The translations under genes were made by a program, and so were the position numbers. Positions 681-64,000 of a stretch of DNA of 64,000 nt are shown one piece after another. The notes below the pieces were generated by a model that was given only the letters and a program-made list of their open reading frames with translations, was not told where the DNA came from and ran no database searches. Source of the stretch: Octopus sinensis (lineage: Eukaryota); the NCBI RefSeq assembly GCF_006345805.1, contig NC_043005.1, forward strand, positions 7,564,001 through 7,628,000, read 5' to 3'. How positions within the stretch are numbered: position 1 is the first letter of the stretch; each line of letters starts with the position of its first letter.

Positions 681-929
681 TACTATATAAGAAACTATTC
701 ACAACAGCACACCGTCTGTCATTTTATATACAGCAAAGTAACCACCTCTTCTATGTTCGGCTTTGTTTTAGAGAGGGCAACTCTCATTTCTGGTGTGATA
801 TCCAGTCGATTTTGTGACTTAGTTTTGATGGCAAGGAAAGTGGAAAATGCGGTCTCACACATAGGTAGTTGGAAATGGCATTATATTGCATTAATAAATC
901 AAGCTATTGGAATTACTGCAGACTCCCTA

Positions 930-1390
930 GCTCACAGTATATGGACACAGATCATATGTCAGTAGCCAGCTGGAAAAGATGTCTTGCTAAGGCTAAAAAG
1001 TAGTAATATTGTCCTACGTAGGACTGCCACTTTGCATTGGCAAATAGACTTTACTGTACAGTACTGTTACTACTTATTTCTCGCTCAGAGATTTAAAACT
1101 AGTTGTTTTTCTCTTTATGAGATCAGCGACTGTGTGTTACTTTAAAAGTATATACTGTGAGCAAGTGCAAGTGGCTGCCATCTCTAGCCGATGGTTGTCT
1201 TGTACCAATGAAGGGAAATTACCCAGAAACCATTGATCTACAAGTATCGCTATGGCTAGAAAGGGAGCAATAGAGTCCCTTTCTTGCAATATACGGACAC
1301 AGATCATGTGTCAGTAACCAGCTGGAAAAGCTGTTACATCATCCTACATAGATCTGCCACTTTGCATTGGCAAGTAGACTTTACTGTAAA
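930..1390 (+). repeat. Diverged ~352-bp tandem repeat with degenerate hammerhead motif
   Basis: ggacacagatca..tgtcagta.ccagctggaaaag...gccactttgcattggca recurs at 943 and 1295; homologous to the 12.2-13.0 kb element. Confidence 0.65.
1199..1244 (+). ncRNA. Degenerate type I hammerhead ribozyme
   Basis: Stem I cttgta/tacaag; core CCAATGA (CTGATGA mutated); stem II ggg-aaatta-ccc; GAAAC; cattgaTC. Confidence 0.55.
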
Positions 1391-3372: not shown

Positions 3373-6013
<2,641 letters not shown>

Positions 6014-12045: not shown

Positions 12046-12393
12046 ACATTAGACAAAAGTGAAAGATTAAGAGATTTTAGCTTTTTGAAACCTGGTAGGT
12101 GATGGGTGGGCAAGGTGGGGGAAGGGCATTGAGTGTTTCTGTAAGAAAAATTAAACTATAAAATATATATATATATATATATAATGATAAATATCAAAGT
12201 GAGTTATATACAGTAGCGGTAACACATCATGACGTATTTTTGCCATTTCAATATGGCTAACCCCTAAGGGTGGATGCTACTGTAGTTTTTAGCCCCAGGA
12301 GGACACACTCCTCCAGCTGGCCATAGACACACTATCTGTGTCCTGTCAGTATTTGCAAAGGGAAGTCATCCTTCCCGTCTTCAACTTATGATA

Positions 12394-12438
12394 CACACGG
12401 ACTCGAGTTTCGAGGTATTGACCTCTCGTCAGCGTGTG
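12394..12438 (-). ncRNA. Type I hammerhead ribozyme
   Basis: Reverse complement reads cacacg-CTGACGA-gagg tcaata cctc-GAAA-ctcgag-TC-cgtgtg; full catalytic core. Confidence 0.88.
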
Positions 12439-12732
12439 ACAATCATAGTTGTCGCCGAGAATTAGATTTCCTTCACAAATGCCTATACTTTTTCCAGCGC
12501 CCACTGTCGCTGATATTGAAAAAGTGAAATCAAACAATGATAAATATCAAAGTGAGTTATATACAGTAGCGGTAACACATCATGACGTATTTTTGCCATT
12601 TCAATATGGCTAACTCCTAAGGGTGGATGCTACTGTAGTTTTTAGCCCCAGGAGGACACACTCCTCCAGCTGGCCATAGACACACTATCTGTGTCCTGTC
12701 AGTATTTGCAAAGGGAAGACAACTATGATTGT

Positions 12733-12777
12733 CACACGCTGACGAGAGGTCAATACCTCGAAACTCGAGTCCGTGTG
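12733..12777 (+). ncRNA. Type I hammerhead ribozyme
   Basis: Stem I cacacg/cgtgtg, CTGACGA 12739-45, stem II gagg/cctc, GAAA 12760-63, palindromic stem III actcgagt, GUC cleavage after 12771. Confidence 0.9.
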
Positions 12778-12975
12778 TATCATAAGTTGAAGACGGGAAG
12801 GATGACTTCCCTTTGCAAATACTGACAGGACACAGATAGTGTGTCTATGGCCAGCTGGAGGAGTGTGTCCTCCTGGGGCTAAAAACTACAGTAGCATCCA
12901 CCCTTAGGGGTTAGCCATATTGAAATGGCAAAAATACGTCATGATGTGTTACCGCTACTGTATATAACTCACTTC

Positions 12976-14072
12976 AAGGAAATAACTCCATTCTGCTTTC
13001 TTGCATAGAGAAAATCAAAATTTCAACGGGAAACTATTATTTTGGTTGAATCTTGGAAGACGGGAATTTGCAGTTTCATTCCTTAGCAAGCATATCCACT
13101 AAGCTTCTTGATGATGACTTAACAGTTGATGTTGATCATTTGAAGCAGTTACATAATGATATGGAAATTCGCTTCTCTGATCTACTCCAAATGTTAGTGC
13201 CACAATGGTTTGTGGATCTCGTCATTGTTGATCCATCTGAAGTTGATATTGACATACAAGAAAGCTTCATTGAATTTCAAAATAACACAGCAGCTCTAGC
13301 TAGGTTCAAGTATGGAGGATACCAGAAGCTGAGGATGAATGAAGAGATCTCTAAAAAGTACCCATTACTCTGGAAAAATGTTAAGTTGCTTTTACTCGGT
13401 TTTCCCACATCTTATTTAATTGATTCAAGTTTCAGTCGGGTGATGTGTCTGCTGTCAAAGACTCGAAATTGCTTTGACTTAGAAAAAAGAGGAGATTTAC
13501 GCCTCTCACTGACAGCTTTGAAACAAACTAAACATTGAAAAGTTGGTAACCCTGCATTAGTCACAAAATTCCCATTGAAATCAGGCAATATAAACTAAAA
13601 TTGTTATATTTTTTGCTTTGTAAATGTAAATAAATTTATTCAAATGAAATATTTATTCAACTATTTTTTTTTTTTTGTTTACAAGTGGGTTGGATGTTTG
13701 ATGCAAAATTATATTTCTTTCAACTTCTCTAGATGCATTAAGTTGAGGGACAGAGTGGGGATAAAAACTTAAATTAGCATGGGGGCCATAACAATTTCAC
13801 ATTGAATTAACCCTTTCGTTACTGTATTTATTTTGAGATGCTCTGTGTTTCTTCCAATCATTTTAAATATAACAAAGAATTTAGTAAAATAACATCGTTA
13901 TCATTAAGCTAGTGTTAGGAACATAAATTGTGACTAAGATTTGGTGGAAGATTTGAATTCAAAACTTATGAAAACAAGAGATTCATACTAAAGAGCCAGA
14001 GCCGGTTTCAGCCAGGTTGGTAACGAAAGGGTTAAAGGGGGCCACAACCAGAATGAAATTGAGAAACACTAG
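12976..14072 (+). mobile_element. hAT (Charlie/Buster-like) transposon 3' remnant
   Basis: ORF 13053-13538 with YPLLW..LLLGFPTSYL..GDLRLSLT (hAT C-terminal dimerisation region); end motif ttgagaaacactag. Confidence 0.75.
13811..14031. mobile_element. piggyBac-type MITE
   Basis: TTAA|ccctttcgttac ... gtaacgaaaggg|TTAA; 221 bp. Confidence 0.85.
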
Positions 14073-16439: not shown

Positions 16440-17365
16440 ATATTAATTGCTCGATGTTTTAGACACTGAGCAATCCCTCTCTTTACACTGTATGAATGGT
16501 GGGAATTGAAGTTGAGGTATCATCCAGTGAAAGTCGGCTTGCGGTGTACGGATATCCTCAATCCATACTTGGTGCGTGTTATTAATACGTCCAGGAATGC
16601 TAGCTGATTGTCTTTTTCTTTTTCCATTGTGAACTGTATGGATGGCTTTATTGAGTTCAAATGGTCTAACAGCACTTGGACATCTTCCTGGTGGAGCCAG
16701 AGTATGAAGGTGTCATCAACATATCGCAGCCATAGGGTTGGTTTTAGTGGTGTTGATCTTAAATTCTCAAAGTATTCCATGTATATTGGCTATTATCGGT
16801 GATAATGGCAAACCCATAGCTAAACCCTCTTCTTGTCGATATATATCGGTATCCATACTGAAGTAGGTAGTTTCTACACAGAAGGTAGAACATTTCCATC
16901 AAGTTTCTTAGTGGTATACTAATGCGTTCTATTAGATGGGTGTTTGTCACTAGTTTTTCTTGAATCACCGATAGTGCTTCACCAGTTGGGACTTTGGTGA
17001 ACAGACTTATCACATTTAGACTCACCATCTGGTTGGATTCAATGGGAGTATCCGTGATCAATTCTATGAAGTGGATGAAATACATCATGTACAATTTTGA
17101 CTTTCCTGCTAATGGACTGATTATATCCACAAGGAAGCAGCTCAGTGGATGACATGCTGAACCTCTACAGCTCACTATAGGTCTTAATGGAATACCATCC
17201 TTGTGAATCTTAGGAAGACCGTACCTGTGTGGTAGTTTCCTGTAGTGTTGAGTTAGTTGTCTGTACTTCATAGGTGTAAAGTGATCCTTGTTCTTGCTCA
17301 AGATCTGTGACAACTTCCTCTCTGTTTTCAAAGTAGCGTCTTTCTTTACTTTGCTGTAGCTACAA
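16440..17365 (-). mobile_element. Penelope-like element reverse transcriptase fragment (frameshifted)
   Basis: YGLPKIHKDGIPLRPIVS, SLFTKVP, WLRYVDDTF, FTME.E...LAFLDV, VHRKPT. Confidence 0.88.
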
Positions 17366-18053
17366 GCGTTTTATAATGTGAGACATTATAAAATACCGAA
17401 AAAAACTAAGGAACAATAATTTGAGGTGGAGTGGGTATATAAAAAGCTTGAAATACATGAATTTAAAATTCTTTTTTAACTGTGAATTACATGTATCTTA
17501 GAATATGAGATATTATAACATGACAGACAAATGGCGTTATCTAGCAAGCCAGACACAACTATTTCTTTGGCTCGCATGTTTTGAGCATCAGAGATTAAGA
17601 TTCTGCATAAAAAAGAGGGGACAGGCACACGCAGTTTTTCAGTCCCGACTTTACGCAAACGTTTTTCAAAATATATGTTTTATAAAGTTAAGCATATTTT
17701 AAAGAATCACAATCTCAGATGTTTAAAAGCATATTCCTCAAAAAACTTTTTGAAGAAAGTAAAAGCAGAAAAATTGAGGAAAGGGGAATGGGAAAAACTC
17801 ACCTTTTTTTTTTTTTTTTTTCTTTTCAAGAATCGTAATCTATGATGCTTGAAACATACACTTCCGAATTACGATTTTTGGCGCAATAGATAATTTTTGA
17901 CTTCAGTAGGAATGCCGTTAAGAGATATATAAATACAATTTACTAAAGTAAACAGTAAGAAAATAGAGGACATTATTTACACGTTATTACAAACTCAAAG
18001 TAAGTAACTTATGTCAACTAACTCGTAATAGCTGCAAACAGTGAACCAGTTTG

Positions 18054-24428: not shown

Positions 24429-25289
24429 TTATTCTTCTGCATGAATAGCTACATGTGTTGTTAAGTGACTTTTTTGAGAGAATGATTTATCACAGATATC
24501 ACAGTGATACGGTTTCTCACCTGTATGAATGTATTTATGTTTCGTTAATTCACCATTTTGGCAGAATGATTTACCACAGATGTCACAGTGATATGGTTTC
24601 TCTCCAGTATGAATGCGTTTGTGAATAGTTAAGTTACCATTCTGACAGAATGATTTACCACAGATATCACAGTGATATGGTTTCTCCCCTGTATGAATAC
24701 GTTTGTGAGTATTTAAGTTTCTACTTCCAGAGAATGACTTACCACAGGTATTACAGTGATATGGTCTCTCTCCTGTATGAATACGTTTGTGAGTAGTTAA
24801 ATGACTTGTAACAGAGAATGAATCACCACAGATATCACAACGATATGGCTTCTCACCTGTATGGATACGTTTGTGAATAGTTACCTCATCATTTCGAGAG
24901 AAGGATTTACCACAGATATCACAATGATATGGTTTCTCCCCTGTATGAATACGTTTGTGCTTAGTTAAGTGATCATTTTGAGAGAATGATTTACCACACA
25001 ATTCACATTGATATGGTTTCTCTCCAGTATGAGTATGCTTGTGTCTAGTTAAGTTGTTTATTTGGGAGAATGATTTACCACAAACATCACAGCAATATGG
25101 TTTCTCACCTGTATGAATATGTCTATGTTTAGTCAAGGTATTTATTTGAGAGAACGAATTACCACAGATATCACAATGATATGGCTTCTCACCTGTGTGA
25201 ATATGTTTGTGAGTAGTCAGGTGACCTTTTTGAGAAAATGACTTTTCACAGATATCACAGTGAAATGATGATTTTATTTCTTTTGGCAT
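24429..25289 (-). CDS. C2H2 zinc-finger protein, 10 tandem fingers
   Basis: CxxC-x12-HxxxH repeats with HTGEKPY linkers; single coding exon; candidate acceptor at 25522 and 5' exon at 26760-26827. Confidence 0.92.
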
Positions 25290-25659
25290 CTCTTTAAGGA
25301 AAAGTCAATCCTTTATATTTCTGACATAAATCCTTTTCCATCATTTTTCTATTCTCACCACAATATATGACTACTTTTCTTATTTTTAGTTTTTATGCTT
25401 TCCCATGTTGATGGAAATACTTTTGAAGAGCGTTGGAAAGTTTTGCCATTAATCTCAGTTCTCAAATATTGATGATGCATCCGAAGCCAAAATTTGTTTC
25501 ACATCAATGTTGTCTGATGCTCTGAAAATAATACAAAAACAATGTAAGAAACAAAGATTACTTAAAAAGTAAAGATTTAACAATGGAAATTTTACATTTT
25601 TGTACAAGTAAACTGTAGAAATAAGATGTATTTCTAAATATACCAAATCAAATCAGATA

Positions 25660-33030: not shown

Positions 33031-33861
33031 ATTTATCGGGCGAGAGTTTTAGTAATAAACCCGATTACTTCACAACATTTTACATCATATTAGTATGTAG
33101 GATCCGGCAATTGCCGTAGGATCCATCTTAATAATAAAAATCTGAAATGGTTAATAAATAGCGAAATAAGTTTATATTTCATACATTAAGTCACAGCATG
33201 AAAAAATTTCAGACTTTTAAAAATACCAACGAAAATGTAAAATATTAATAGACAATATTTTAATTATTGAATACTTTCAGCCATAAATACTTACTGATAT
33301 TGTAATAATTACTGACAGTAAAAGTTTATCCAATTAGTGCAACTTAATTGAAAAAAATAAATAAAGCAGTCTGGTTTCATGGGGGAAATAGAAAACCAGG
33401 TTTCATTGCGCATGTGTACAAATTTTATACTATATGGAAGGCTGGCAAAAAACACCCGGCGTTGCCCGGGTGTTAAGAAAATAATGAAATTTAAAACTAC
33501 CTTTCAGATTTCTAACATGAAACATAGACTACGCAGGTCTCACCTCCTAATAGCTGAGATACATATATATATATATATAAGAATACATATCAATACGTAT
33601 ATGCTTAAAGTACACATACACACACACATACGTACGTACATTCAAACATACATACATACACACACACGCATATATACATGTATGTATGTAGATAGACAGA
33701 TAAATAGACAGGCAGACACATAGATAGATAGATAGATAGATAGCTAGATTATACGCAAACATTTTATTTTTAGTCTGTAGAGTTACGAAGTAGTTAAGCA
33801 ACTCAGCACCCATGAGTTTCATGCATGCGTCTTATATACACATACATAAGTACATATATTC

Positions 33862-36470
33862 AGCAAAATTCGATGCCGTCTATTGCAAGCTGAGCCTATC
33901 TGAGTTTTGCCTGCCCGTGTTGGCTGTCTACAGGCCGCCTCTTGCCGACCCCCAGGACGATGCTCATTTACTTGAAGCGATAAGATTCGTTTCAGCTTCG
34001 CATGACTGTTTGGTACTAGGAGACTTCAACGCTCCCACGATCGATTGGCCCGCATCAATTTGTACAACATCTTCCCGTTTCGGCCAGGCCCTTCTTGACG
34101 TGGCTGAAGATTGTTTTCTATCGCAACATGTTGAATATCCGACAAGGCATCGGTCTGGGCAGCAGCCATCTATGCTAGATCTGGTATTCTCCCGCTATCC
34201 AAGATCAGTGTCAGACGTATCTGTGTGCGCCCCTCTTGCCAAGAGTGATCATGCAGTCCTGAAGTTCGTCATGCACACAACTTTTTCTACGCCCACGACT
34301 ACTTCGCTGCCACGTAGAGTCTTCTCTGCAATTAATCTTGAAATTCTAACCGAGGCTTCCGCGCTTCTGGACTGGCGATCCCTGATGACGTTGTCCTCTG
34401 TTGACGAACTATGGTCATCCCTCAAAGCATATGTAATCTGTTTGACTGACCAGACAGTTTCCGTTAGGCTTCCCAAGAAGAAGAAACACAAGCCCTGGGT
34501 GACGAAGAAGGTTAAACGAGAACGTCGACTCAGAGATATTGCTTGGGCTGAATTCAAAAATCTGGATTCAACTGCAGCTTTTGAGGTGTACAAAACTCAA
34601 CGAGACCGAGCCTTGAAAATAGAAAAGAAAGAACGCTTCAGTTATGAATACAAAATCGCGGCAAATGCCAGTAGCAATCCAAGAACCTTCTTTGCCCATG
34701 TCCAGCGGAATTCCCGCTTGAACAACCAGATTGCAACGTTGGTAGACTCAACAGGCGTATCGATTGAGGACCCTTATCAACAGAGTCAATTATTTGCTGA
34801 TGCTTTTTCAACTATTTTCAAACAAGATGATGGTCGTGAACCCCCTCCATTTGATAGATCGGTACCTCCAATGCTTCGATTGGTCATCACGCGGGACGAA
34901 GTCAAACGTGTTATTCAAGGCCTCGATGTTAACAAGGGTCACGGCCCTGACGGCATACACCCACGGGTTATCAAAGCGTTGGCTCCGGTCATCTGCGAGC
35001 CCTTAACACGACTATTCAATATGTCATTGGTGTTATACCTGCAGACTGGAGAACAGCGATAATCTGCCCAATTTTCAAGAAAGGGAGCCGCGAAGACCCG
35101 CTTAACTACTGACCGGTTTCCCTTACATCAATAATCAGCAAGATGTTCGAAACCATCCTTAAGAAAAGTATGATGCTCCACCTCCTAAACACAGCCTCTA
35201 TCTCCGATTCCCAACACGGCTTCGTGCCGAAGAGATCATGCTTGACCAACTTACTAGTAATGGAAGAATTGGTGACGCGCATCCTCGATGATAGTGATGC
35301 TGTTGACATCGTTTTATTGGACTTTGCCAAAGCTTTTGACTCGGTAAACCACCGCCTATTACTTGTCAAGCTTCAAGCATATAGTTACCATCCGGATATT
35401 ATACGATGGGTTGGTGCCTTCCTCTCAGATCGCTCCTTCCAAGTCCAAGTTAATGGTTCGCGGTCCGACGTCTCCAGTGCGAGCAGTGGCGTGCCTCAAG
35501 GTTCAGTGCTTGGGCCCTTGTTGTTCTTAGTCTTCATAAATGACTTGCCCGACGACCTCACGCAACACACCCTTCTATTTGCCGACGATATCAAACTGGT
35601 CGCTCCTCACGGTAATATAGAGGATCTTCGTCGATGCCTCCACCAAATTTGGAAGTGGTCTAACGATTGGGACCTGTGTCTGAACATGTCAAAGTGCTGT
35701 CATCTGCCTGTCGGCTCTACTCCTGCAACTCAACTTGATTTCGAGCCGGGTCGTCTGCTGCTGGAGAGGACCGATCAGGTAAAGGACCTGGGTATCTTGG
35801 TGGATTCCTCCTTTTTGCCTTCGGCCCAGTGCGTCCATGCTGCCAACAAAGCACGTGGAATTCTGTTCTTGATTCGACGGTCATTCGGAATGCTCACAGC
35901 AGCCATATTCCTACCACTCTATGTCACGCTGGTGAGACCCAGATTGGAGTATGGGATTCAAGCCTCTTCTCCTTATCTCCTCAAAGACATACAGCATCTC
36001 GAAAGAGTCCAGAAGCTGGCTACCCGCATGGTTCATGATCTCAAAAATTTGTCCTACGAAGAAAGGCTGAGGACGCTCGACCTTTATTCTCTTGAAAAAC
36101 GCCGCCGCCGTGGTGATCTCATTCTCGACCACAACATCATAAGCGGAAATTGTAACCTCTCGAAAGAGCTGTTCTTCACTCCTGCTCCAGAGCGTCGGCT
36201 GCGGGGTCATTCCGAAAAGCTCTACCTGCGACGATTTCATCTCAATCGAAGGAGAGGAGCTTTCTCCGTCCGGGTTGCGGATCCGTGGAACAAGCTGCCA
36301 GACGAGATGGTGAAGATGCTGACGACTGCTTTGTTCAAAGCCTCCCTGGACCTCAAGTGGCCTGAACTCTTTACATGAACACCACCCTGTACTTAACTCC
36401 ATGTCCCCCTACATGGCCTTGCTATTTGCTTTTGAGCCAAATTAACTAACTAACTAACTAACTAACTAAC
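33862..36470 (+). mobile_element. CR1-clade LINE, 5'-truncated ORF2 (APE + RT), young
   Basis: LGDFN, SDH, GPDGI, QHGF..RSC, LDFAKAFD, GVPQGSVLGP, FADD; one frameshift and one stop near 35030-35110; (TAAC)n tail. Confidence 0.92.
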
Positions 36471-37741: not shown

Positions 37742-38200
37742 CTATCCATATGGTATATTTATATTCGACATTTTAAATTTAGTTGCGTGCCTACATAAGT
37801 TCATTAGCTCACTACTTTGATTCAAAGAATTATTGTCTTTGAATAAAATGTACATTTTTTCTAATAGGCAAAGTTTGCATTTAAAATTATTTCTGTATGC
37901 TCCATGCCTGTATGGTGCCGCTCTGTCCAGAATGCTCCATGTCACGTTGAAAGGTGGGGTTTCCTTTTCTTTTAGTTCCCAGACATATTTTGCTAGGCTG
38001 GTCCTCTTCCTATTCTCTGGGTATTTAAATGAATTTTTATGTGAATAAAATCGTGTTTTAAATGAATTTTCTGAAGCCCCTGTGTATGTCTTGTATTCCG
38101 ATGAGCCTTCTACTTGCACCTTGGCTCTATAAACTACTCCTTTCACTAGACATTTCCCTTCTAACGGACAGGAGTTTTCGTTTTTGCAATAAAGACAAAC
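37742..38200 (-). mobile_element. Penelope-like element GIY-YIG endonuclease C-terminal fragment
   Basis: CPLEGKC..VVY.A..YTG..FKTRFYSH..SF..TSLAKYVWELK..CKLCLLEK..CRH. Confidence 0.85.
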
Positions 38201-39511
38201 CACGATGGACAGGCATGTATACAAACGTGTATATATCTGTGTTTGGCATAGTAAGTAAGTAACCAGCTATTTACACACACGTATGTATACATCATTACAG
38301 TTGTGACGATTTCTGATAAAAAAGAATTCCTAAAGGTATATATGTGTGTGTATATGTATATATGTACTTATGTATGTTTGTACACACACACATGTATATA
38401 TACATCATTACAGTTGTGATGATTTCTGGTAAAAAAGGTATATATATATATATACTCTTGATACCCTTCCCCCCATCCCTAATCCTAACTAACCCTAAAA
38501 TAGATTGAAATGCAATAGATCGATACTAGGGTCATAATTTCGGGTGACAATTTCATACGACACCACTAGAAAAAACTGCCGTTCAAACCGACATTTATAC
38601 ATTACTGCATATGCTTTATACGCACTTTTGACAAATTGTGGTACACCTGAGTACTGTATACTATAATTTCATTATATATTTCATAGTTATCTGATTCACT
38701 TGCAATATCTATTCAAAACAAATCAGTAACAAATGGCACTTGAATATCTGATCTTAACAGTAACAACAATTAAGCAAAAAGGTGTGCTGCTGGGCATCTA
38801 TCATCCAAGCATGGATGTCATCATAAGCCAATAAAAAACTGAAAATATCAAAACATCCTCTAACCTACAGAATTCTACACATCACTGAAGCAATATGACC
38901 ACTGTCAGTAAAACTAAGCTACTAGAATGTTCTAATAGCCTTAGATATATCAAAATACAAGATCCACTATCTTTAACTTTGAATATATATAGAAATTTTA
39001 TTCAACAATATTTTCAAGGGTGAATCAATTTCATGAGATCTAGAAAGTACCATCCAACAAATATCATAGGTAAGAGATTTTAAACTTGGTTTTTATTTAC
39101 ATATACATGTGAATTTAAGTTACTAAATTTTATAAGAACTTTTTACAATTGTCTTTTTCTGATAGTCCTTAAAAATCAACACTTAGAAAATGAAAGTTCT
39201 CTTAATAAAATACTTCTGTTTATTATTTTTTCGTTGGTGTTAGGAAGGGCATCCAGCCGTAGAAACATTGCCAGATCAGACTGGGCCTGGTGCAGCCTTC
39301 TGGCTTCCCAGACCCCAGTTGAACCGTCCAACCCATGCTAGCATGAATTGCTTTGTTCATTCAAAGAGACAAGAATTTGGGGGGGTTGATACATTTAACT
39401 AAAAATTCTGAAAACGAAAAAAATAACTATGACTGAACATAACTATTCTTTTCACCCCCAAACAACTATGTCAGACCTGTAATATTTGCACCTAGTAGAA
39501 GTTCCATAAAT

Positions 39512-40680: not shown

Positions 40681-41946
40681 TCACATTTTCAAGTTTGATT
40701 GTTTTCTTGCAATGTGTATTTCTTTGTGTCTTTTTAAAACTCTATTAGAGACAAAAGAATTCTCACATAGTCCACACTGATATGGTCTTTCTCCAGTGTG
40801 ACTGCGTTTGTGGACTACAAGATTGGATTTATTAGCGAATGATTTTCCACATATCCCACAATGATATGGCTTCTCTCCTGTGTGACTACGCTTGTGAACT
40901 ACAAGACGAGAATTATCAGTGAAAGATTCTCCACATATCTCACAACGAAATGGTTTTTCTCCTGTGTGACTACGTTTGTGAACTACTAGACTAGAATTAA
41001 CAGAAAAAGATTTTCCACAGATTTCACAAGGATAAGGTTTTTCTCCAGTGTGACTTCGTACGTGAACTACAAGTTGAGAATTATTACTGCAAGATTTCCC
41101 ACACATTTCACAGTGGAACAGTTTTTCTCCAGTATGTATTTTTTGATGCGTTTTTAACAGAAAATTAGTGGAAAACGATTTTCCACACATTTCACAATGA
41201 AAGGGTTTTTCCCCAGTGTGGATTCGTTTGTGTTTTGTTAAATTACCATTGGAGACAAAAAAATTTCCACATATTTCACAGTGGAAAGGTTTTTCTCCTG
41301 TGTGGATTTTCTTGTGTGTTGTTAAATTACTATTATACACAAACGATTTTCCACACACCTCACAGTGAAACGGTTTTTCACCTGTGTGTAGTCTGTTATG
41401 TGTTGTTAAATCACTGTTAGAAACAAAAGATTTTCCGCATATTTCACATTGATACGGTCTTTCTCCAGTGTGTACAGTCTTGTGAACTACAAGATTGGAA
41501 TTCTGAGCAAAAGATTTTCCACATATTTCACAGTGGAAAGGCTTTTCTCCAGTGTGACTACGTTTATGAATAACAAGTCTTGAATTAACAGAGAAAGATT
41601 TTCCACATATTTCACAACGAAACGGTTTTTCTCCAGAGTGTGTTCTTTTGTGACTTATTAAATTAGAATTATCAGCAAATGTTTTTCCACATATATCACA
41701 GTTGAAAGGTTTTTCAGCAGTGTGTAGTCTTCCGTGTCTGTTTAAAATACTGCTGGAGGCAAAAGATTTTCCACACACTTCACAATGATAAGGCTGTTCT
41801 CCAGTGTGGCTACGTTTATGGACGACAAGATGAAAACTCTTAAAGTAAGATTTTCCACATATTTCACAGTGAAACATTTTTCCTCCACGGTGTATTCTTT
41901 TGTGACCTGCTAAATTACAATTCTTCACAAAATATTTCCCGCACAC
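40681..41946 (-). CDS. C2H2 zinc-finger protein, 15 fingers; N-terminus disrupted, first in-frame ATG at 41877
   Basis: HTGEKPF-linked fingers; upstream in-frame TAG at 41989-91, a MITE insertion, and TTG where the paralogue has ATG. Confidence 0.85.
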
Positions 41947-42024
41947 TTCACACTGAAAAGATTTTTGTTCAGTAATTGTTTCACCACTCTATGCCTGTAT
42001 CCGTATGTATGGTAAAAAAAAACA

Positions 42025-43787: not shown

Positions 43788-45202
43788 CTTCAGAGAAATG
43801 GCGTTGTGAGATGAATACATGAATGCAGCTCAAAAAAAAAAATCACGGGGGTTTTGTCCGGATCTCATAAATTAATTGTGACTTTATTACCGGTCACCGA
43901 ATACATAACAGAAAAGTATTTCCTATTTTCCTTCTTTGAAGACATTATGTCTTCAAAGAAGGAAAATAGGTAATACTGTCTGGAGGGTGTAGTCTGTTTT
44001 TTTGTTTTTTTTTTTAATGGGAAGATCATGGCAAGAATACCTTTGGTTATAGGTTTGCTGCATCAAGGGTCTGATTAAATGCTAAATCACTAAATTCCCC
44101 ATCCCTAACTTCCTTCCAATAACCCGCTTTCACTTCTAAAGTTGGTAATTCAAAATGTTTCAATTACAGTAGAGGGGAGATAACTCAAAAGAAATGACTG
44201 CTTTTAAAGGTTGTTATAGACTTAAGGTTAGTTTGTGGAACATCACTGTATTCTGATTTCTTTTATTTATGTCTGATCTTAACATGATTGCTTCTACTAT
44301 ACTGACCCATTAAATATATTTATAACGAACAGCTTACACATACATATCAGAGTCAGAAATAAGAATACCTTGCAGGTGGTCGTCGCTATTGATTTAGTTC
44401 AAGGACTTAGGTACCAGATACCAAGAGTTAGCACTAACATCGCAGCAGTACTTAAATTTAGTTTGTTTATTATTCAAATGTACATCTCAAACAAATATCA
44501 CTATATATAAAAAAAAACAAAAAAAACAATTTGGCAGCTCAAACTGGATGCCAAAACTAAATATCTTTGTAATTACAGAAGGCAAAATAGCAACTGTTTG
44601 AGGTAAGTGAAATGACACTGAGAATATATTTCTTTATTACCCACAAGGGGCTAAATACAGAGAGGACAAACAAGGACAGACAAACGGATAAGTCGATTAT
44701 ATCGATACCAGTGCGTAACTGGTACTTAATTTATCGACCCCGAAAGGATGAAAGGCAAAGTCGACTTCGGCGGAATTTGAACCCAGAACGGCGTGCTAAC
44801 GATTCTGCCAGCTCGCCAGCCATCCACATTAAGCTGGATTTCCTTAGGAGCCGCTGGGATTTTTAAAACTCCTTGTATCACGACGACGATGATTTTATTT
44901 CTTTGTTTGTTCGTGTTTCTTTCATAACTTTAAAATACTTATAGGAAACAAATAATACCGTTTCATTCAGGTTAAGGCACTGGAATTGTTTTATTGATAC
45001 TTTTAATATTTTTCGAGTTAAATTGGGAAAGCTTCGATTAGGTGGGGGTAAGAATTATTTTAAAGAATGCGAATTGCAAATGTTTCTGAACACGGAGCTT
45101 TAACGGTAATCCTCGCCGTGAAGTCAGAGCGAGTTTTAAAAAATGTATAAACAGTATCAGCATAGCAATGTTGGAAGAGGCGACTTTGATGAAGATATTA
45201 AT

Positions 45203-45218
45203 GGCCCTGAAAAGGGCC
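45203..45218 (-). terminator. Histone 3' stem-loop of the H4 pseudogene
   Basis: GGCCCT-TTTC-AGGGCC, ~30 nt after the stop codon. Confidence 0.92.
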
Positions 45219-45246
45219 GGTATGTCTGAAAAATTTGATTTTAGTT

Positions 45247-45548: not shown

Positions 45549-46773
45549 CAGGGCGCGGTGAATAAATTATCGTCTAAATTGCATAAAAGTGAACATAACA
45601 GACATTTCATTCTAACATACATTTACCAGAATTACGATTCAATAAAATCGCCATCGGCTTCAACGACAGCCTCCAGACGACATTGGAATTTCCCGCAACA
45701 CTTCCGGACGGTCTCCTTGTTTAAGTTGATGAATGCTGCCATAATCCTTGCCCTCAGTTCATCTTTGGTGTTACAAGGCGTTTTGTTGGTCTCTCGCTCA
45801 ACTGCGCCCCACACATAATAATCAAGGGGGTTGCAGTCTGGGGAGTTAGGTGGCCAAATGTTAGGGGTGATGTGGTCGCAGAAATTGTCTGACAGCCATG
45901 ACTGGGTTCTCCTGCTTGTGTGGCATGGTTCAGAGTCCTGTTGCCAGATATAGGGTCTTCCAGCAGCTACCCTCTTGACCCAGGGTAGCACCACCTCCTC
46001 CAGATACTTGATGTAGACCTCCGTGTTAAGTGTGAGGCCGTGTGGAAAGATGACTGGTGGCATAACGTCACCATCACTAGTGATCACTCCAAACACCATG
46101 ATGTTAACTGGAGGGTTATCTGTTGGTACATCCTTTGGGGACACTACAAGCCAACGGTTGTCCTGTGCGTTCGTCTGATCCTGGCAGAAATTTTTCTCGT
46201 CTGAGAAAAACCAAAGCACATTGGGTTGGAGGGGATGCTGGAGTTTATTCAAAAGCTTCGTAGCGCGGTCTTTCCTTTTGTCCTTGATGGCTTGGGATAA
46301 AAATTGGCCCTTTCTCATTTTGTAAGAGGAATACCGAATGTCTTCATGCACTACCTGCCTGATAAGGCGCTCAGACACTCCCATGTCCCTGGCTATGGAC
46401 CTGTTTGACTTGGAGGGATCATTGTCAATAACGGCCCGGATCTTACAAACAAATTCAGGAGTTCTTTTCTTATCAGAACGATCCGAGTGAGTTTTCCGAG
46501 CTGCCGTACCTTCGTAATCACCATTAGATTCATCCAACTCTTTCCGAATTCTCTGCACTGTCCTCAGGTTGACACCCAAACACTCTGATATGTTCATATT
46601 GGAGCTTCCGGCGCGAATGCCAAGCAGTACGGCATGTCGTTTCCAAATTTCTGGCACAGTTAATTGCGTCATGGTGTCCAACTGACCCTACGAAACTGTG
46701 TAGTCGACAAAATCAAAATACAATGCGCAAAATTTTAAATATAAAACAGCGACAATTTGTCAGTCGCACCCTG
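45549..46773 (-). mobile_element. Tc1/mariner maT (DD37D) transposon
   Basis: Imperfect TIRs cagggcgcggtgaataaattatcg / cagggtgcgactgacaaattgtcg; TA at the right end, CA at the left. Confidence 0.88.
45632..46672 (-). CDS. DD37D transposase, open 346-codon ORF
   Basis: HTH region, FSDEK, WQQD-x37-D (SPDCNPLDY); first ATG at 46672. Confidence 0.88.
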   Translation of the reverse strand: MTQLTVPEIWKRHAVLLGIRAGSSNMNISECLGVNLRTVQRIRKELDESNGDYEGTAARKTHSDRSDKKRTPEFVCKIRAVIDNDPSKSNRSIARDMGVSERLIRQVVHEDIRYSSYKMRKGQFLSQAIKDKRKDRATKLLNKLQHPLQPNVLWFFSDEKNFCQDQTNAQDNRWLVVSPKDVPTDNPPVNIMVFGVITSDGDVMPPVIFPHGLTLNTEVYIKYLEEVVLPWVKRVAAGRPYIWQQDSEPCHTSRRTQSWLSDNFCDHITPNIWPPNSPDCNPLDYYVWGAVERETNKTPCNTKDELRARIMAAFINLNKETVRKCCGKFQCRLEAVVEADGDFIES

Positions 46774-46775
46774 TA

Positions 46776-47395
<620 letters not shown>

Positions 47396-47425
47396 ATGTG
47401 GAACATAATGTGAACATTATAAAAT

Positions 47426-47441
47426 GGCCCTTTTTAGGGCC
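47426..47441 (+). terminator. Histone 3' stem-loop (H3)
   Basis: GGCCCT-TTTT-AGGGCC. Confidence 0.92.
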
Positions 47442-47696
47442 CCCTAGATTATTTCGAAAGTATTTTCTTTCGTTCATGGATATGCTATTTGCTTACCAGT
47501 TACTCATTTGTTTTAATATGTAATCTTGTAAAAATTTGGCGGTGACCGATTCTTCGATATCTCAGCTTACACTCTGCAGTATTTTTTAGATATTTCTCTT
47601 AACTATACAACAGCGATTATTTTTCGAAGTAAATCATCTGAAACGTAAAATATTCAACAAACTCTGACGTCGTTTATTTTCGTTTTCCAATGTTCA

Positions 47697-50274: not shown

Positions 50275-51941
50275 TTAAAAATGAAGATTTTAATTTCGCA
50301 TGAATTACTCTGTCATATTACTGCAGGAAATTACTCTGAAAGAAATCTTTGCAGAAAGGTTAGTAGGTTGATTACGTATTTCTTTCATTATGTTATCGCA
50401 GTTTTGTGAGATTTGGCTGTTACTTCTAGTATGTGGATAGCCTACTTGAAGGCCAAGGCGGTAGAATTGAGAGGAGGAGAGGTATTTCTCTTTTTTAAAT
50501 CGAAATTTTACAATTTTTTTCAGAATCGGGTTCTCCATAGCCAAAATCGTGGGATTTCATATTAAATAAATCAATATATATCCATTTTCCTGCAAGTTAT
50601 GAGGGAAAAATCGGATCTTGTGAATTTTCCAAAAGTCCCCTCCCATCAGGTTCGTTTGCGCAATTTTTTTTTCACATTCATTTTCTACAGTTGTTAACAC
50701 CCAGCAGGCTGGTTTTTTTTTTTTTTTCGTTAACGGGTGAGGGAGGATCTCTTTATTTACCAGTTTATCTACCCTGCTATCCTTTGGGTCTTCGGATTTT
50801 TCAAAGGCGTTTTTGTTACATTTTCGTAATGATTTATACTTCTATTTTTCTTTCACATGAAATTCTAATATAATCTACAATCTGAAATGTCTGAAAATTT
50901 TATTACAATAAACCATTTTTCAGGAAGTTAGAAGGAAACCAAATCAGGGGTGGACATGAATACATCTGTGGTTATGACCCGCCCATCCCAAATTAAAGCT
51001 GCTCAACAATAACAAAAATCTGACTTCCAACCGTTTACATATTCGTTTCGCTTATTCAGCAAACCCGAGGCTATATTTGTATGTTCCCATATTGATTTGC
51101 TTTTGTTATCTATTCTGGAGTTGTACTTAGAGCCCCAAATATGTATGGGAGGACGGAGCGTTCGATTCTTCAATCAGTTGGGTACTTTAGTAAGGGTTTT
51201 CATTCCGTATAACTAATCTATTAGCTGAAAACGAATACCAACTAGCTGTTAGTGAAGCCCTCTTCTTCTCGTTACAACATCCTCGATGTTCCTCCAGTTG
51301 GGAAAGCCGTGAAGGTGCCTTAAGTCTGCTCATAAAACAATAGCGAAAGCTACAATATTCGCCAGCGAGTGATTATGCTTATAAAAATTCGGTGATGTTT
51401 TGGGTTTAAGTACATATGAAATAGGAAGGTCGCTATAGTGACTAACTGTTGTTCGTTTTAATTGAATGTATGTAAAAACGTAACAATTTTATCTCCTCAA
51501 AAAACTCTATTGAATTCGAGACGTAACAAGTACCGCAAGGGTTTTTTTTTCCCTGCGTTTTACCATTATTATTGATTATTCTAACAGTCTGTTTTGCCAT
51601 CGATTAAATTGACTAGTATTTTCTTTTCTTTCACATGAAATTCTATTTTATGAAAGGCGAAGTTTTCTTTAAGGATACGTAATTAATACCGACTATAGTT
51701 GATCACAAATTGCATTTTAGTAGGCTTTTTTTCTTTTTTTAGGTAAAATTGTCTGCACTGGCTCGGCGATCTTTTATTTGAATTTAGCGCCTTATGAGTT
51801 CATTGGCGGATGACAGTCAGGTGACAAACTCTAACTCCGCCTAATTAGCTTACTGACTGCGGAGACCTGTAGCTTATTTAAACTGATAAGAACAAAGAAA
51901 ACATTTTAGCTGTCTGCTACGTAACTGTAATCAACTCAACA

Positions 51942-52319
51942 ATGTCTGGACGTGGTAAAGGAGGCAAAGCCAAGGCCAAGAGCAAGACTCGATCTTCTCG
52001 TGCCGGACTTCAGTTCCCCGTCGGCCGTATTCACCGTCTTCTACGCAAAGGAAACTATTCCGAACGTGTCGGTGCAGGGGCCCCGGTCTACCTTGCTGCT
52101 GTAATGGAATATTTAGGTGCTGAGGTGTTGGAATTGGCTGGAAATGCTGCCAGAGACAACAAGAAAAGTAGAATTATTCCCCGTCACTTGCAGTTAGCAA
52201 TCCGTAACGATGAAGAATTGAACAAACTGCTGTCTGGAGTAACCATCGCCCAGGGTGGTGTTCTTCCTAACATCCAGGCTGTCCTTCTCCCTAAGAAGGC
52301 CCACAAAGCAGCTAAATAG
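51942..52319 (+). CDS. H2A: Histone H2A, replication-dependent
   Basis: [42 protein letters not shown]; intronless. Confidence 0.99.
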
Positions 52320-52346
52320 GTTAATTACCTTGGTTTTTCAACAAAC

Positions 52347-52362
52347 GGCCCTTATAAGGGCC
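52347..52362 (+). terminator. Histone 3' stem-loop (H2A), loop TATA
   Basis: caaac-GGCCCT-TATA-AGGGCC-acca. Confidence 0.9.
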
Positions 52363-54464
52363 ACCACAGTTTACGTTTAGTTTTCTCCTGATTGTTGATG
52401 AATGCGATAGACTTATTTCAAGTTTAATCTTTTTTTTTTCGCTTTGATAGTTTAAAAAAAAGTTGTCTTCACTTACGTAAATGGTTTCATTTTTCGTAGA
52501 TTAAAAAAAATGCCTTTTGTTTCACGAAATTTTTACTTTTCAGCAATTGGACTTCTTGAAGTGACAGTATCTTTGTCTAAAAATGTTTTGGTTAATGATT
52601 TGCTTAAATTTGAACATGACCTTTTGCTTACGCTGCGGCCCTTATTTGTCCTCGGATATTGTTAGATGGAAGGGCGTTAGACTTCACTACGATTTTGTGG
52701 CTGGTGATCGACTGTATAGAAATTCAGTTACTTTTTATGACTACAAATACGAGGATTTCCCGAGATGACGGTCCAATTCATATTTTCCTCCAGTATCTAA
52801 CGGTTCAGTTATGCGCAATTCTTATTCAAATTTCAAGGAATAACTTTTCATCCCAGGAATGAGGCGTTTCAACCGTCTTAAAAAAAAAAAAAATTTGGCA
52901 CTGTCATGCCTTTAGTTGTCAGGAGGAAAGTAGAAAACAGTTTTCAAACTAACAAAAGCCAGCGGTGGAATTCTGGTCAAGTACATCATATAGCCTCTCA
53001 TAACTTTACATTTAAAAAAAAATATTTAAAGAAAATTTTTGCGAATGTGTTCTACGCACGACAATTCATACGATTATGTAAACTACCCGTGATTTAAAGG
53101 CTATGTAGCTGTTATTTTTAAGCACACGTCTCGACCATCTCTCACACCCTCCTTATTTATCAGTTTGACGTATTGATGTGTACTTTTAAACCAGAATTTC
53201 GTCAAATCAGCCACAATTTTTCTTTCTTTCTTGTATTTATATATTTCTTTCCAAGTTAGAAACTCTCTTGAACATGAATTCGTCCGCCCACTTTTCTATC
53301 TTCACTCATTCCTTGCTTTTCCCTTTTTACTAGAAACACTGTCGTAGACACCCAGTGAAGTTTCGGAAAAGGCACACCATTTGACCGAATTGTTTTGAGC
53401 ATGAAATCTTTTCAGGCGAACGTAAAGAATACGTACACTCGGTGTTTAGGGTTTGTGTTATGTCGAAAACGGGTGGTACGTATTCTTGACCTCCGCCAAA
53501 TATTCTCTACTCTAGACACAAGGCCCGAAACTTTTGGGGAGGAGGTCAGTCTATTAGATCGACCTCAGTACGCAACTTGGTACTTAATTCATCGACCCCG
53601 AAACAATGAAAAGCAAAGTCGACCTCGGCAGAATTTGAACTCGGAATGTAAAAATAGACGAAATACTGCTAAGCATTTCGCCCAGCGAAAAATATGAGCT
53701 GCAGTAGTAACTTACGCTGTAAAAGTAAATATTAATGAATAAGGTAATGATTTCTAAATATAGGCGAATCTGTAATTTTCAGAAATTTTTGCCAATGTAG
53801 TGTACACACGGGAATTCATACAACTGCGCAAAAACCCAAACAAAAATATTTTTGCGAGATTTTATTCCACGGCTTCTCAGAAGCTGATTTAAATGAAAGT
53901 TGTGTGTGAACTTGGTGGAAAGAGTTTATTGGAATAATTATACGACGTTTTGTCCCGTAACACCCCAATTGGAAATGCAATGAATCTAAGATACTTGTTT
54001 CCCTGTCAGGAAGAAAGATAAGGGCTAAAGAAATAATACAGCCCTTAAATCACGCCAAAACTTTTTGTGTTATTGCGCAATCGAATGAATTCCATTCGCA
54101 AAAATTTCTGAAAGCTGTAAAAGTTATCACGAGTTGTATTGGGTGCTTAAAGTAGAATTTCGCCGAATATATATATTTTTTGCTTTCTACCACAGGCACG
54201 AAGCCTTTTGTGGGGAATAGGCTCGTGAATTACTTCGACCCCACCCCCAGTGCTAAAGGATGACCTCGGCGGAATTTAAACTCGGTCCGACGTACTGACG
54301 GTTCTTTGCTGCAGCTAATTATTATTATAACCAGGCGGGAAGAGAATAGTTAAAGAACCAATTTTTCATAAAGTAGTAAGAATGTTATAAAACACTGGAT
54401 ATTTTCTTGTCACTTAATTAAAAGAAAAAAAAAACGCATATTGGGGAGGCAAAAATGTATTTAA

Positions 54465-57600: not shown

Positions 57601-58114
57601 TGTGGTGCACCTGAGCACTGTATACAATAATTTCATTATTATTATATTATAACAATTTATTTTCTGATCTCTTTTACTTGTTTCAGTCATTTGACTGTGG
57701 CCATGCTAGAGCACCGCCTAGGACTTATTCTTCGTAAGCCTAGTACTTATTCTATCGGTCTCTTTTGCCGAACTGCTAAGTTACGGGGATGTAAACACAC
57801 CAGCATCGGTTGTCAAGCGATGTTGGGTGACAAACAGACTCAAACATATACACACATACATACATATATAAAATTTTCTTTGTGGTTTATCATGTATTGT
57901 TGACAAGCTATAAGTTTTACTAAAATGGTCAGCTAAATATCCCTTAAAATCACATTTTCTTTTGGTTTCTGCATAGTCAGAAAATTCCAAAGAAACAAGT
58001 CAAGGGGTTATATTCTGTGCGTAAAGCAGAAATCCACCGAAAAATCTCTAGTAGATGAAATTAAAATCGCTGCGAATGAAAGAGAAAGAGAAAACAAAAA
58101 TGTAAAGTGTGAGA

Positions 58115-58130
58115 AGCCCTGAAAAGGACC
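58115..58130 (-). terminator. Histone stem-loop of the H2A pseudogene
   Basis: caac-GGTCCT-TTTC-AGGGCT. Confidence 0.8.
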
Positions 58131-58170
58131 GTTGATACGGATACAGCAAAATGCCACCCAAGAAATATAT

Positions 58171-58548
58171 TTGCTTCGAAGGTTTCTGAGTCTTCTTGGG
58201 AAGAAGAACAGCTTTGAATGGTGGGAAGAACACTACCTTGAACAATGGTTACTCCAGACAAAAGTCTGTTTAATTCTTCGTCATTGCTGATAGCTAATTG
58301 CAAATGACGGGGAATAATTCTCAATTTCTTATTCTCTCTTGTAGCATTTCCAGCCAATTCCAACACCTCGGCAGCCAAATATTCCATTACAGCGGCTAAG
58401 TAGACTGGGGCTCCGGCATCAACACGTTGGGCATAGTTTCCCTTGCGGAAAAGACGGTGGATACAGCTAAAAGGGAACTGAAGTCAGCACGGGATGAGCA
58501 GGTCTTGCTCTTTCCCTTCACCTTACCTCCTTTACCATGTCCAGACAT
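58171..58548 (-). pseudogene. H2A: Histone H2A pseudogene
   Basis: MSGHGKGGKVKGKSKTCSSRA / [15 protein letters not shown].. / [13 protein letters not shown] in different frames; stop mutated to CAA. Confidence 0.95.
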
Positions 58549-63862: not shown

Positions 63863-64000
63863 ATTTATTCTTCAGGAATTCTTAAAAACTGAGAAATATG
63901 AGAATATAATTTATGGTTCAATTTCTTGTCTTGTATACGATGAGAACTCTGCTATCATGCATGAAAAATATACAATGTAGATATATTTTCAAATAATCAT

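What the first reader, a model, noticed from the sequence alone, without database searches (positions are those of the whole stretch)
930..1390. Diverged relative with the same unit length and the same ribozyme-to-motif spacing
Seen: the period is 352 bp (ggacac at 943 and 1295) versus 353 bp in the 12-kb element. A decayed hammerhead (1199-1244) has its cleavage C exactly 57 nt upstream of ggacacagat, as in the young element (12771 to 12828). Both have an intervening hairpin (gggaag/cttccc versus aggga/tccct). Stem I differs completely in sequence (cttgta/tacaag versus cacacg/cgtgtg) yet pairs. Inference: size and structure are conserved across sequence-divergent families, which suggests a functional RNA architecture.
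Basis: partly seen in the sequence, partly recalled or inferred. Interest (0 to 1): 0.75.

Follow-up and report, generated by a model that had tools for sequence, protein, structure and literature searches.

The report
Old retrozyme subfamily with weakened hammerhead
This is a decayed copy of an older branch of the same small, protein-free jumping repeat found 12 kb away; the branches kept one RNA fold while their letters changed, and the old branch spread to over a thousand sites with an altered, likely slow self-cutting core.

Summary
Observation confirmed. 920-1388 is a 5'-truncated insertion (about 1.35 units, one hammerhead) of an old subfamily of a ~352-nt non-coding repeat. The young 12-kb element is the same lineage: the units align end to end. 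Both end at the same two unit positions (about 111-118, or 40-60 nt further) beside (TA)n and often have a head-to-head second arm, the Penelope-like footprint. It is a metazoan non-LTR retrozyme. The scan has reported such elements in this genome before.

Covariation is real: of 49 pairs compared between young and old consensus, 19 changed (16 on both sides) and none broke. The 57 nt is the 3' strand of a ~56-bp rod capped by the ribozyme; it is 57-60 nt across subfamilies, not fixed.

The old consensus does not restore CUGAUGA: it has U4C and an A-A mismatch at 10.1/11.1, and this copy also lost G5. Arms with two or more ribozymes occur in 1 of 29 old against 11 of 17 young insertions, though age confounds this. 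Cleavage, circles and the partner enzyme are untested.

The parts
920..1388 (+). Whole insertion: single-armed, 5'-truncated partial tandem of the old subfamily (Ba)
   Evidence: L001/L217: unit 1-352 then 1-116; upstream remnant aligns from 920
920..942 (+). 5' remnant (last ~23 nt of a preceding unit); truncation point
   Evidence: w0: 21 of 22 identical to the consensus end
943..1294 (+). Full 352-nt unit, 91% identical to the family majority consensus
943..1075 (+). Structured domain downstream of the rod (hairpin H1, nested hairpin H2, multiloop with H3 and H4) that holds the main insertion end site (unit 111-116 = 1053-1058); predicted RT-recognition region
   Evidence: role inferred
1094..1118 (+). 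Region of the second ('tail') end site used by other old copies (unit 152-176)
1148..1204 (+). 5' strand of the long rod (extended stem I), with the conserved TTGT side of the internal loop
1199..1244 (+). Type I hammerhead. Core 1205-1211 (C4 is the family state; G5 to A at 1207 is private decay); 10.1/11.1 = A1212/A1225 mismatch; stem II 1213-1215/1222-1224; GAAA 1226-1229; near-palindromic stem III 1229-1237; cleavage C17 = 1238
1239..1294 (+). 3' strand of the rod (the '57-nt spacer'); contains the alternative local hairpin at about 1262-1281
1295..1388 (+). Partial second unit (1-116) with a 22-nt deletion; 3' end of the insertion at the family's main end site
12183..12721 (-). Young subfamily (Y), left arm: 1.5 units, intact hammerhead at about 12432, ends at unit 161 against (AT)n
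12718..12974 (+). Young subfamily, inverted right arm: hammerhead 12733-12777, C17 = 12771, ends at unit 147

Best explanation
920-1388 is a decayed, 5'-truncated genomic copy of an old subfamily of a ~352-nt hammerhead-bearing non-coding repeat, the same lineage as the young element at 12.2-13.0 kb, and it was likely pasted in by a Penelope-type reverse transcriptase/endonuclease borrowed from an autonomous element. Mechanism, step by step. (1) Shown: the unit is non-coding, dispersed and homologous end to end across at least nine subfamily groups. (2) Predicted, and backed by covariation: the RNA folds into a ~56-bp rod capped by a type I hammerhead, followed by a multi-hairpin domain; in a cleaved monomer the rod would hold the two ends together for ligation. 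(3) Inferred from other retrozymes: tandem transcripts self-cleave, probably as dimers through the palindromic stem III, and are ligated into circles. (4) Shown as a footprint, inferred as a mechanism: copying starts at one of two fixed sites in the hairpin domain at (TA)n targets, runs through the ribozyme site, stops at scattered points and often leaves an inverted second arm. (5) Shown: the old subfamily's master carried U4C and an A10.1-A11.1 mismatch, so it would have been a slow cutter; this copy also has G5A and is predicted dead.
For: Homology: score 232 against 68 +/- 12. Copy number: 2203, 1403 and 3340 first-look candidates for the old, young and third (C) queries (not copy counts). 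Ends: in 3'-anchored samples, 25 of 45 old arm ends lie at 101-116 and 16 of 45 at 144-176; 14 of 30 young arm ends lie at 110-118 and 13 of 30 at 161-164. Two-armed insertions are 12 of 29 old and 12 of 17 young, and the flanks are mostly TA/CA microsatellite. PMC8557442 (passages) describes partial tandems, an inverted 5'-truncated copy, a 30-40 bp tail at one end and (TA)n bias for PLEs. Recent RT+GIY-YIG elements that also end at (TA)n exist in this genome. Covariation: 24 of 58 predicted pairs change on both sides across 9 subfamily sequences, against 2-5 in slid controls. On 26 real copies, 87% of cells pair against 33-47% slid, and the covariation score is 0.304 against 0.195 shuffled. 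Young against old: 16 double, 3 single, 0 broken of 49. Rod duplex energy is -43.6/-65.4 kcal/mol within a family and about -20 across families. Stem III plus loop is a perfect palindrome in 7 of 11 sequences and nearly so in the rest, in several different sequences. Arms longer than one unit: 35 of 78 old, 49 of 61 young; 5' ends do not pile up at the cut site (4 of 78, p=0.18; 2 of 61). Core state: Ba dinucleotide 4-5 is CG 13, TG 8, CA 6, AG 2 of 29, like other CpG sites and unlike TG sites. In copies chosen without regard to the core it is CG 12, TG 9, CA 2, other 2 of 25, and 10.1/11.1 is A-A in 23 of 25 (some rows are tandem or duplicated copies).
Against: No autonomous PLE sharing the unit was found. 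Three unit hits lay in 46 GIY-YIG loci, none forming a PLE 3' end, and three PLE 3' ends looked unrelated by eye. Cleavage, ligation and circles were not observed. Arms longer than one unit fit uncleaved tandem transcripts as well as circles. Units of one old 5-unit array share few non-CpG variants (1-7 per pair), so single-template copying is not shown for the old family. The structure tested was derived from the same sequences, which inflates paired-cell counts, and related sequences can beat the shuffle control. In one search the count of double-change pairs (28) was reached by 15 of 500 shuffles, and pair-type diversity (70) was below the shuffled mean (76). The subfamilies form a ladder, so independent events are fewer than sequences.
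Confidence: 0.85

Rival explanations
1. The units are truncated pseudo-LTRs of an autonomous Penelope element that has not yet been found, and the copies are its 3' ends.
For: Same footprint. Retrozymes are related to pLTRs in Xenopus (bioRxiv 10.64898/2026.07.22.740005, parts 1-3 of 5 read).
Against: Sequence 5' of a unit is more unit, an inverted arm or unique flank; arrays of up to 6 ribozymes within 3 kb carry no ORF. No PLE among the 46 loci examined ends in the unit, but only 46 loci from 5029 GIY-YIG candidates were read.
Confidence: 0.08
2. The ribozyme of the old subfamilies was catalytically dispensable. The fold was kept as a recognition signal for transcription or the RT, and copies were made from uncleaved tandem transcripts. 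This is an alternative for step 3 only.
For: Two core defects are fixed in the master. A mismatch at 10.1/11.1 is the majority state in 6 of 7 groups counted, all but the young one. Old arms rarely reach two ribozymes (1 of 29). PMC8557442 (passages) notes that PLEs without hammerheads proliferate well.
Against: G5, A6, G8, A9, GAAA, U16.1, C17, stem III palindromy and the TTGT/TA internal loop are kept across groups 54-60% identical, which is hard to explain without selection on catalysis. U4C viroids remain infectious and a U-U mismatch at 10.1/11.1 supports cleavage (PMC3088659, passages and section 8). An axolotl retrozyme with a stem II base mismatch cleaves (PMC7229834).
Confidence: 0.2
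3. A host-functional, conserved structured RNA at this locus.
For: The window copy still folds better than shuffles (z -2.9; -3.2).
Against: The copy is 9% diverged from the consensus, with CpG-type decay, G5A and a 22-nt deletion, and folds far worse than a near-consensus copy (z -7.4). The covariation is between subfamily masters, not within this copy.
Confidence: 0.02
4. An ordinary satellite or SINE in which the hammerhead resemblance is chance.
For: Rfam finds no hammerhead.
Against: An intact CUGANGA core stands in 62 of 63 young sequences at positions 4-5, and all three stems covary. Copies are dispersed with fixed 3' ends.
Confidence: 0.01

Closest known systems
Metazoan non-LTR retrozymes (Cervera and de la Pena 2020, PMC7229834; parts 2-4 of 6 read, supplement unreadable)
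   Same: Non-coding 150-450 bp tandem unit with a type I hammerhead (mussel 350-390, axolotl 330/353 nt); highly self-paired predicted circle; short palindromic helix III; a stem II base mismatch in one axolotl family; PLEs proposed as mobilisers.
   Different: Probably a cephalopod host (inferred), and octopus is not named in that paper's main text. The old subfamily has U4C plus A-A at 10.1/11.1. Fixed dual end sites and inverted arms are mapped here. Expression and circles are not shown here.
Retrozymes as non-autonomous PLE derivatives (Li, Clavereau, Pollet 2026, bioRxiv 10.64898/2026.07.22.740005; parts 1-3 of 5 read)
   Same: Monomers, dimers and multimers; coexistence with PLEs; monomer share varies by family.
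   Different: Mostly vertebrates. There, 24 of 57 Xenopus families match known TEs, mostly PLE pLTRs; here no homologous PLE was found. Their search needs two consecutive units with complete motifs, which would probably miss this old subfamily.
EN+ Penelope-like elements and their insertion structure (Craig et al. 2021, PMC8557442, passages; Cervera and de la Pena 2014, PMC4209133, parts 1-2 of 4 and one supplement file searched)
   Same: Partial tandem, inverted 5'-truncated copy, tail at one end, microsatellite targets, hammerhead with palindromic helix III.
   Different: No ORF. The hammerhead is of canonical size (6-bp helix I, 6-nt loop 2, internal loop), not the minimal pLTR type; G10.1-C11.1, highly conserved in PLE motifs, is mismatched in most subfamilies.
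Natural hammerhead core variants (Perreault et al. 2011, PMC3088659; passages and section 8)
   Same: U4C is known (much slower in vitro, sufficient for viroid infectivity); a U10.1-U11.1 mismatch is known.
   Different: Both kinds of defect occur together here, as the master state of an amplified family. That study rejected core mutants in repeats as cryptic mutants unless activity was measured.

Membership tests
Metazoan non-LTR retrozyme | 150-450 bp non-coding unit in tandem copies | tested here: met
   352-nt unit; core-to-core periods 352, 352, 355 in old loci; no ORF >=100 aa over 920-1388
Metazoan non-LTR retrozyme | Type I hammerhead topology in each unit | tested here: met
   Stems I, II, III with compensatory changes
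Metazoan non-LTR retrozyme | Canonical catalytic core (CUGANGA, 10.1-11.1 pair, GAAA, UH) | tested here: inconclusive
   Met in the young subfamily of the same lineage; not met in the old subfamily consensus (U4C, A-A) or in this copy (G5A). Membership is claimed for the lineage; this copy is a dead member
Metazoan non-LTR retrozyme | No LTR, PBS or PPT and no coding capacity | tested here: met
   Arms consist of unit sequence only; PBS/PPT judged by eye only
Metazoan non-LTR retrozyme | Self-cleavage in vitro | not testable with these tools
   Needs a transcription assay
Metazoan non-LTR retrozyme | Expressed as linear and circular monomer RNA | tested here: inconclusive
   Only assembled contigs from runs not on record as RNA
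PLE-mobilised element | Fixed 3' ends with tail, variable 5' truncation, inverted second arm, microsatellite target | tested here: met
   this copy has the main 3' end but a single arm and no surviving (TA)n
Autonomous EN+ PLE | RT + GIY-YIG ORF between pLTRs | tested here: not met
   No ORF in the element; the unit does not form the end of the PLEs read
Non-autonomous derivative of a specific PLE | Sequence homology to a pLTR of the partner | tested here: inconclusive
   None in 46 loci out of 5029 GIY-YIG candidates

The most novel reading that the evidence does not exclude
The subfamily ladder is a natural experiment on what the ribozyme does for a retrozyme. Older masters spread with a weakened core (U4C and/or a mismatch at 10.1/11.1) and left mostly insertions of under two units. 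The youngest master gained a perfect core and leaves multi-lap arrays. Ribozyme efficiency would then set the share of circular templates and thus the array length, while the rod and the hairpin domain, not cleavage, are what the Penelope enzyme needs.
Probability: 0.25. Interest if true: 0.65.

Novelty: new member of a known kind. Interest (0 to 1): 0.38.

Why it matters
The class is known, and this copy is a fossil. Its value is comparative. Subfamilies down to about 55% identity give the covariation needed to define the fold of an animal retrozyme, including the domain where copying starts. They also show that a doubly non-canonical hammerhead was carried by a family that amplified widely. 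Why Penelope-type elements carry hammerheads, and whether circles are their templates, is described as open in the papers read (PMC8557442, PMC4209133, bioRxiv 2026). Paired old and young masters make both questions testable. Searches requiring a canonical core would miss such families.

Tried and rejected
Rfam scan: no hammerhead hit.

Partner search: a GIY-YIG search gave 147 matches from 5029 candidates; 30 loci plus 16 longer stretches were read. Three carried a unit of this lineage nearby (L117, L126, L131), but not as the PLE's 3' end, so I took them as independent insertions.

Expression: no RNA holder was listed. Contigs from runs guessed to be RNA cover the young unit; one is 383 nt (353+30), which a circle, a tandem transcript or tandem DNA would all give. 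Old-family contigs are short and shallow in those runs. Neither result is used as evidence.

Pile-up of 5' ends at the cut site, expected for a linear cleaved template: not significant. Shared private variants within an old array: too few to call. A first comparison of array length (21 of 25 young, 5 of 37 old, 1 of 29 family C with two or more ribozymes) was set aside because the queries select on length; it was replaced by 3'-anchored samples. A period count failed through a poor pattern and was redone, where some group labels follow the locus rather than the copy, so only clear rows are cited.

Groups E, F, G and B2 were found with a pattern that demands CYGANGA, so their core counts are biased and not used for the U4C claim. 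Fixed 57-nt spacing was rejected (57-60). No target-site duplication was seen by eye at 920/1388.

Literature: five searches showed no paper describing an octopus retrozyme. The supplement of PMC7229834 and one file of PMC4209133 could not be read, and the bioRxiv supplements were not seen; they may list one.

Full report
Observation. All coordinates hold. The motif recurs at 943 and 1295 (352 nt); the young element repeats at 353 nt; the cleavage C lies 57 nt before the motif in both. The two units align end to end (score 232 against 68 +/- 12 for 300 shuffles), so they are two subfamilies of one element. The insertion runs from about 920 to 1388: a 23-nt remnant, one full unit, and unit positions 1-116 with a 22-nt deletion. 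It holds one ribozyme and could not release a monomer by two cuts.

Family. The genome is 2.72 Gb. The old unit gave 2203 first-look candidates with best hits at 79-90%, the young unit 1403 at 98-99%, and a third subfamily 3340. These are not copy counts; the 3'-end queries gave 1158 (old) and 1534 (young) candidates. A pattern search (117 matches against 19 for the reversed control) added more. From 216 loci, 179 distinct pieces spanning ribozyme and downstream domain were put on a tree and grouped into 11 sets; consensus identities run from 92% down to 47%. Mean divergence from consensus is 0.8% in the young set and 11% in this copy's set (Ba).

Insertion footprint. In samples anchored on the 3' domain (30 loci each, reduced to 29 old and 17 young insertions), arm ends cluster at two homologous sites: 101-116 (25 of 45) and 144-176 (16 of 45) in old copies, 110-118 (14 of 30) and 161-164 (13 of 30) in young ones. 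Twelve of 29 old and 12 of 17 young insertions have an inverted second arm. Flanks are mostly (TA)n or (CA)n. This matches the PLE structure described in PMC8557442 (passages). 5' ends are scattered and show no significant pile-up at the cut site. The genome holds recent RT+GIY-YIG elements that also end at (TA)n; one has a Cys-rich linker that I recall as Neptune-type (label from memory). None of those read shares the unit.

Structure. RNAalifold on nine subfamily sequences predicts 58 pairs; 490 of 511 cells pair and 24 pairs change on both sides, against 2-5 when partners are slid. On 26 real copies a 60-pair structure gives 87% paired cells (33-47% slid) and a covariation score of 0.304 (0.195 shuffled, 0 of 500). 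The number of double-change pairs (28) was reached by 15 of 500 shuffles, and pair-type diversity did not exceed shuffles. Unconstrained folding of those copies recovered stem I, stem II and hairpin H1, with 14 of 25 pairs double-changed, but not the rest. Young against Ba: 30 pairs same, 16 double, 3 single, 0 broken; young against Bb: 34, 18, 2 and 3 broken. The structure was derived from these sequences and the subfamilies are related, so the counts lean in its favour.

What the 57 nt is. The 56 nt after C17 pair with the 56 nt before C3, forming a rod with the ribozyme at its tip; the GGACAC motif starts at its base. Within-family duplexes are -43.6 (young) and -65.4 (Ba) kcal/mol; cross-family ones are -20.7 and -20.3. 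Single-sequence folds give the rod (z -7.4 for a near-consensus copy, -2.9 for the window copy). The two folds use the same bases; a switch between them is possible but untested. Spacing is 57-60 nt. Stem III plus loop stays self-complementary while its sequence changes, as expected for ribozymes that act as dimers (PMC4209133).

The core. The old consensus does not restore CUGAUGA. Positions 4-5 behave as an ancestral CpG: CG 13, TG 8, CA 6, AG 2 of 29, against 49%, 21% and 18% at other CpG sites, while true TG sites read CG in 11 and CA in 3 of 464 cells. Copies chosen without regard to the core agree. The TG copies look canonical only through CpG decay; the window's CA is the opposite-strand decay and removes G5, the substitution I recall being used to inactivate hammerheads. 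Position 10.1/11.1 is A-A in 25 of 29 Ba and 14 of 14 Bb, C-A in 22 of 31 C copies, and G-C in 63 of 63 young ones. PMC3088659 reports that U4C lowers activity considerably yet supports viroid infectivity.1-11.1 the most conserved pair after 15.1-16.1. The rest of the core is kept across all groups, so I read the old ribozyme as slow rather than lost.

Array length. Arms with two or more ribozymes occur in 1 of 29 old and 11 of 17 young insertions (Fisher p about 1e-5; median longest arm 348 against 630 nt). Correcting the young sample for its bias towards arrays gives 39%. Old arrays may have collapsed or been split, and diverged pieces are harder to detect, so this is a lead and not a result.

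Verdict. A new member of a known kind: a dead copy of an old subfamily of a Penelope-mobilised non-LTR retrozyme. My reading was set before that look-up. What this finding adds is the covariation-defined fold, the explanation of the spacing and the weakened core of the older masters. Interest 0.38.

Noticed in passing
L126:2236 (-) and L132:4132 (+): A PLE family with a 775-aa RT+GIY-YIG ORF carries a minimal hammerhead with palindromic helix III in its 3' UTR; one copy has C at core position 4, the other U.
   Followed up: partly
L121-L130: A young PLE family (781-aa ORF, about 98-99% identical copies) ends at (TA)n, in some copies with a shared extra tail; my scans found no hammerhead in its 3' UTR. 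It is a candidate partner by age and target only.
   Followed up: partly
L042:693-927: A far more distant relative (47-57% identity) with different stem I and stem III that still pair; single copy seen.
   Followed up: no
L197 and L198: Two tandem units (L197) and two inverted arms (L198) of old subfamily B2 are about 2% apart but 10% from other copies, suggesting gene conversion or late copying from a diverged template.
   Followed up: no
window 12974-13538: The young element's right arm ends at unit 147 without (TA)n, directly against a 162-aa open frame with no Pfam match that I recall as hAT-like.
   Followed up: no
window 46973-47466, 51882-52386, 58061-58483, 45178-45223: Histone H3 and H2A genes with 3' stem-loops, a degenerate H2A copy and a further stem-loop on the minus strand.
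   Followed up: partly
window 24429-25304, 40681-41988, 62282-63871: Three C2H2 zinc-finger arrays (84-nt period) on the minus strand.
   Followed up: no
window 16759-17370 (-), 37742-38266 (-): A Penelope RT fragment (E 3e-9 to the L121 protein) and a frame that looks by eye like a GIY-YIG domain, with no Pfam match.
   Followed up: partly
window 45632-46687 (-), 33794-36378 (+): A Tc1/mariner-type transposase frame and a LINE endonuclease/RT in two frames.
   Followed up: no
window 3392-5991: Near-identical tandem duplication of about 1.29 kb.
   Followed up: no
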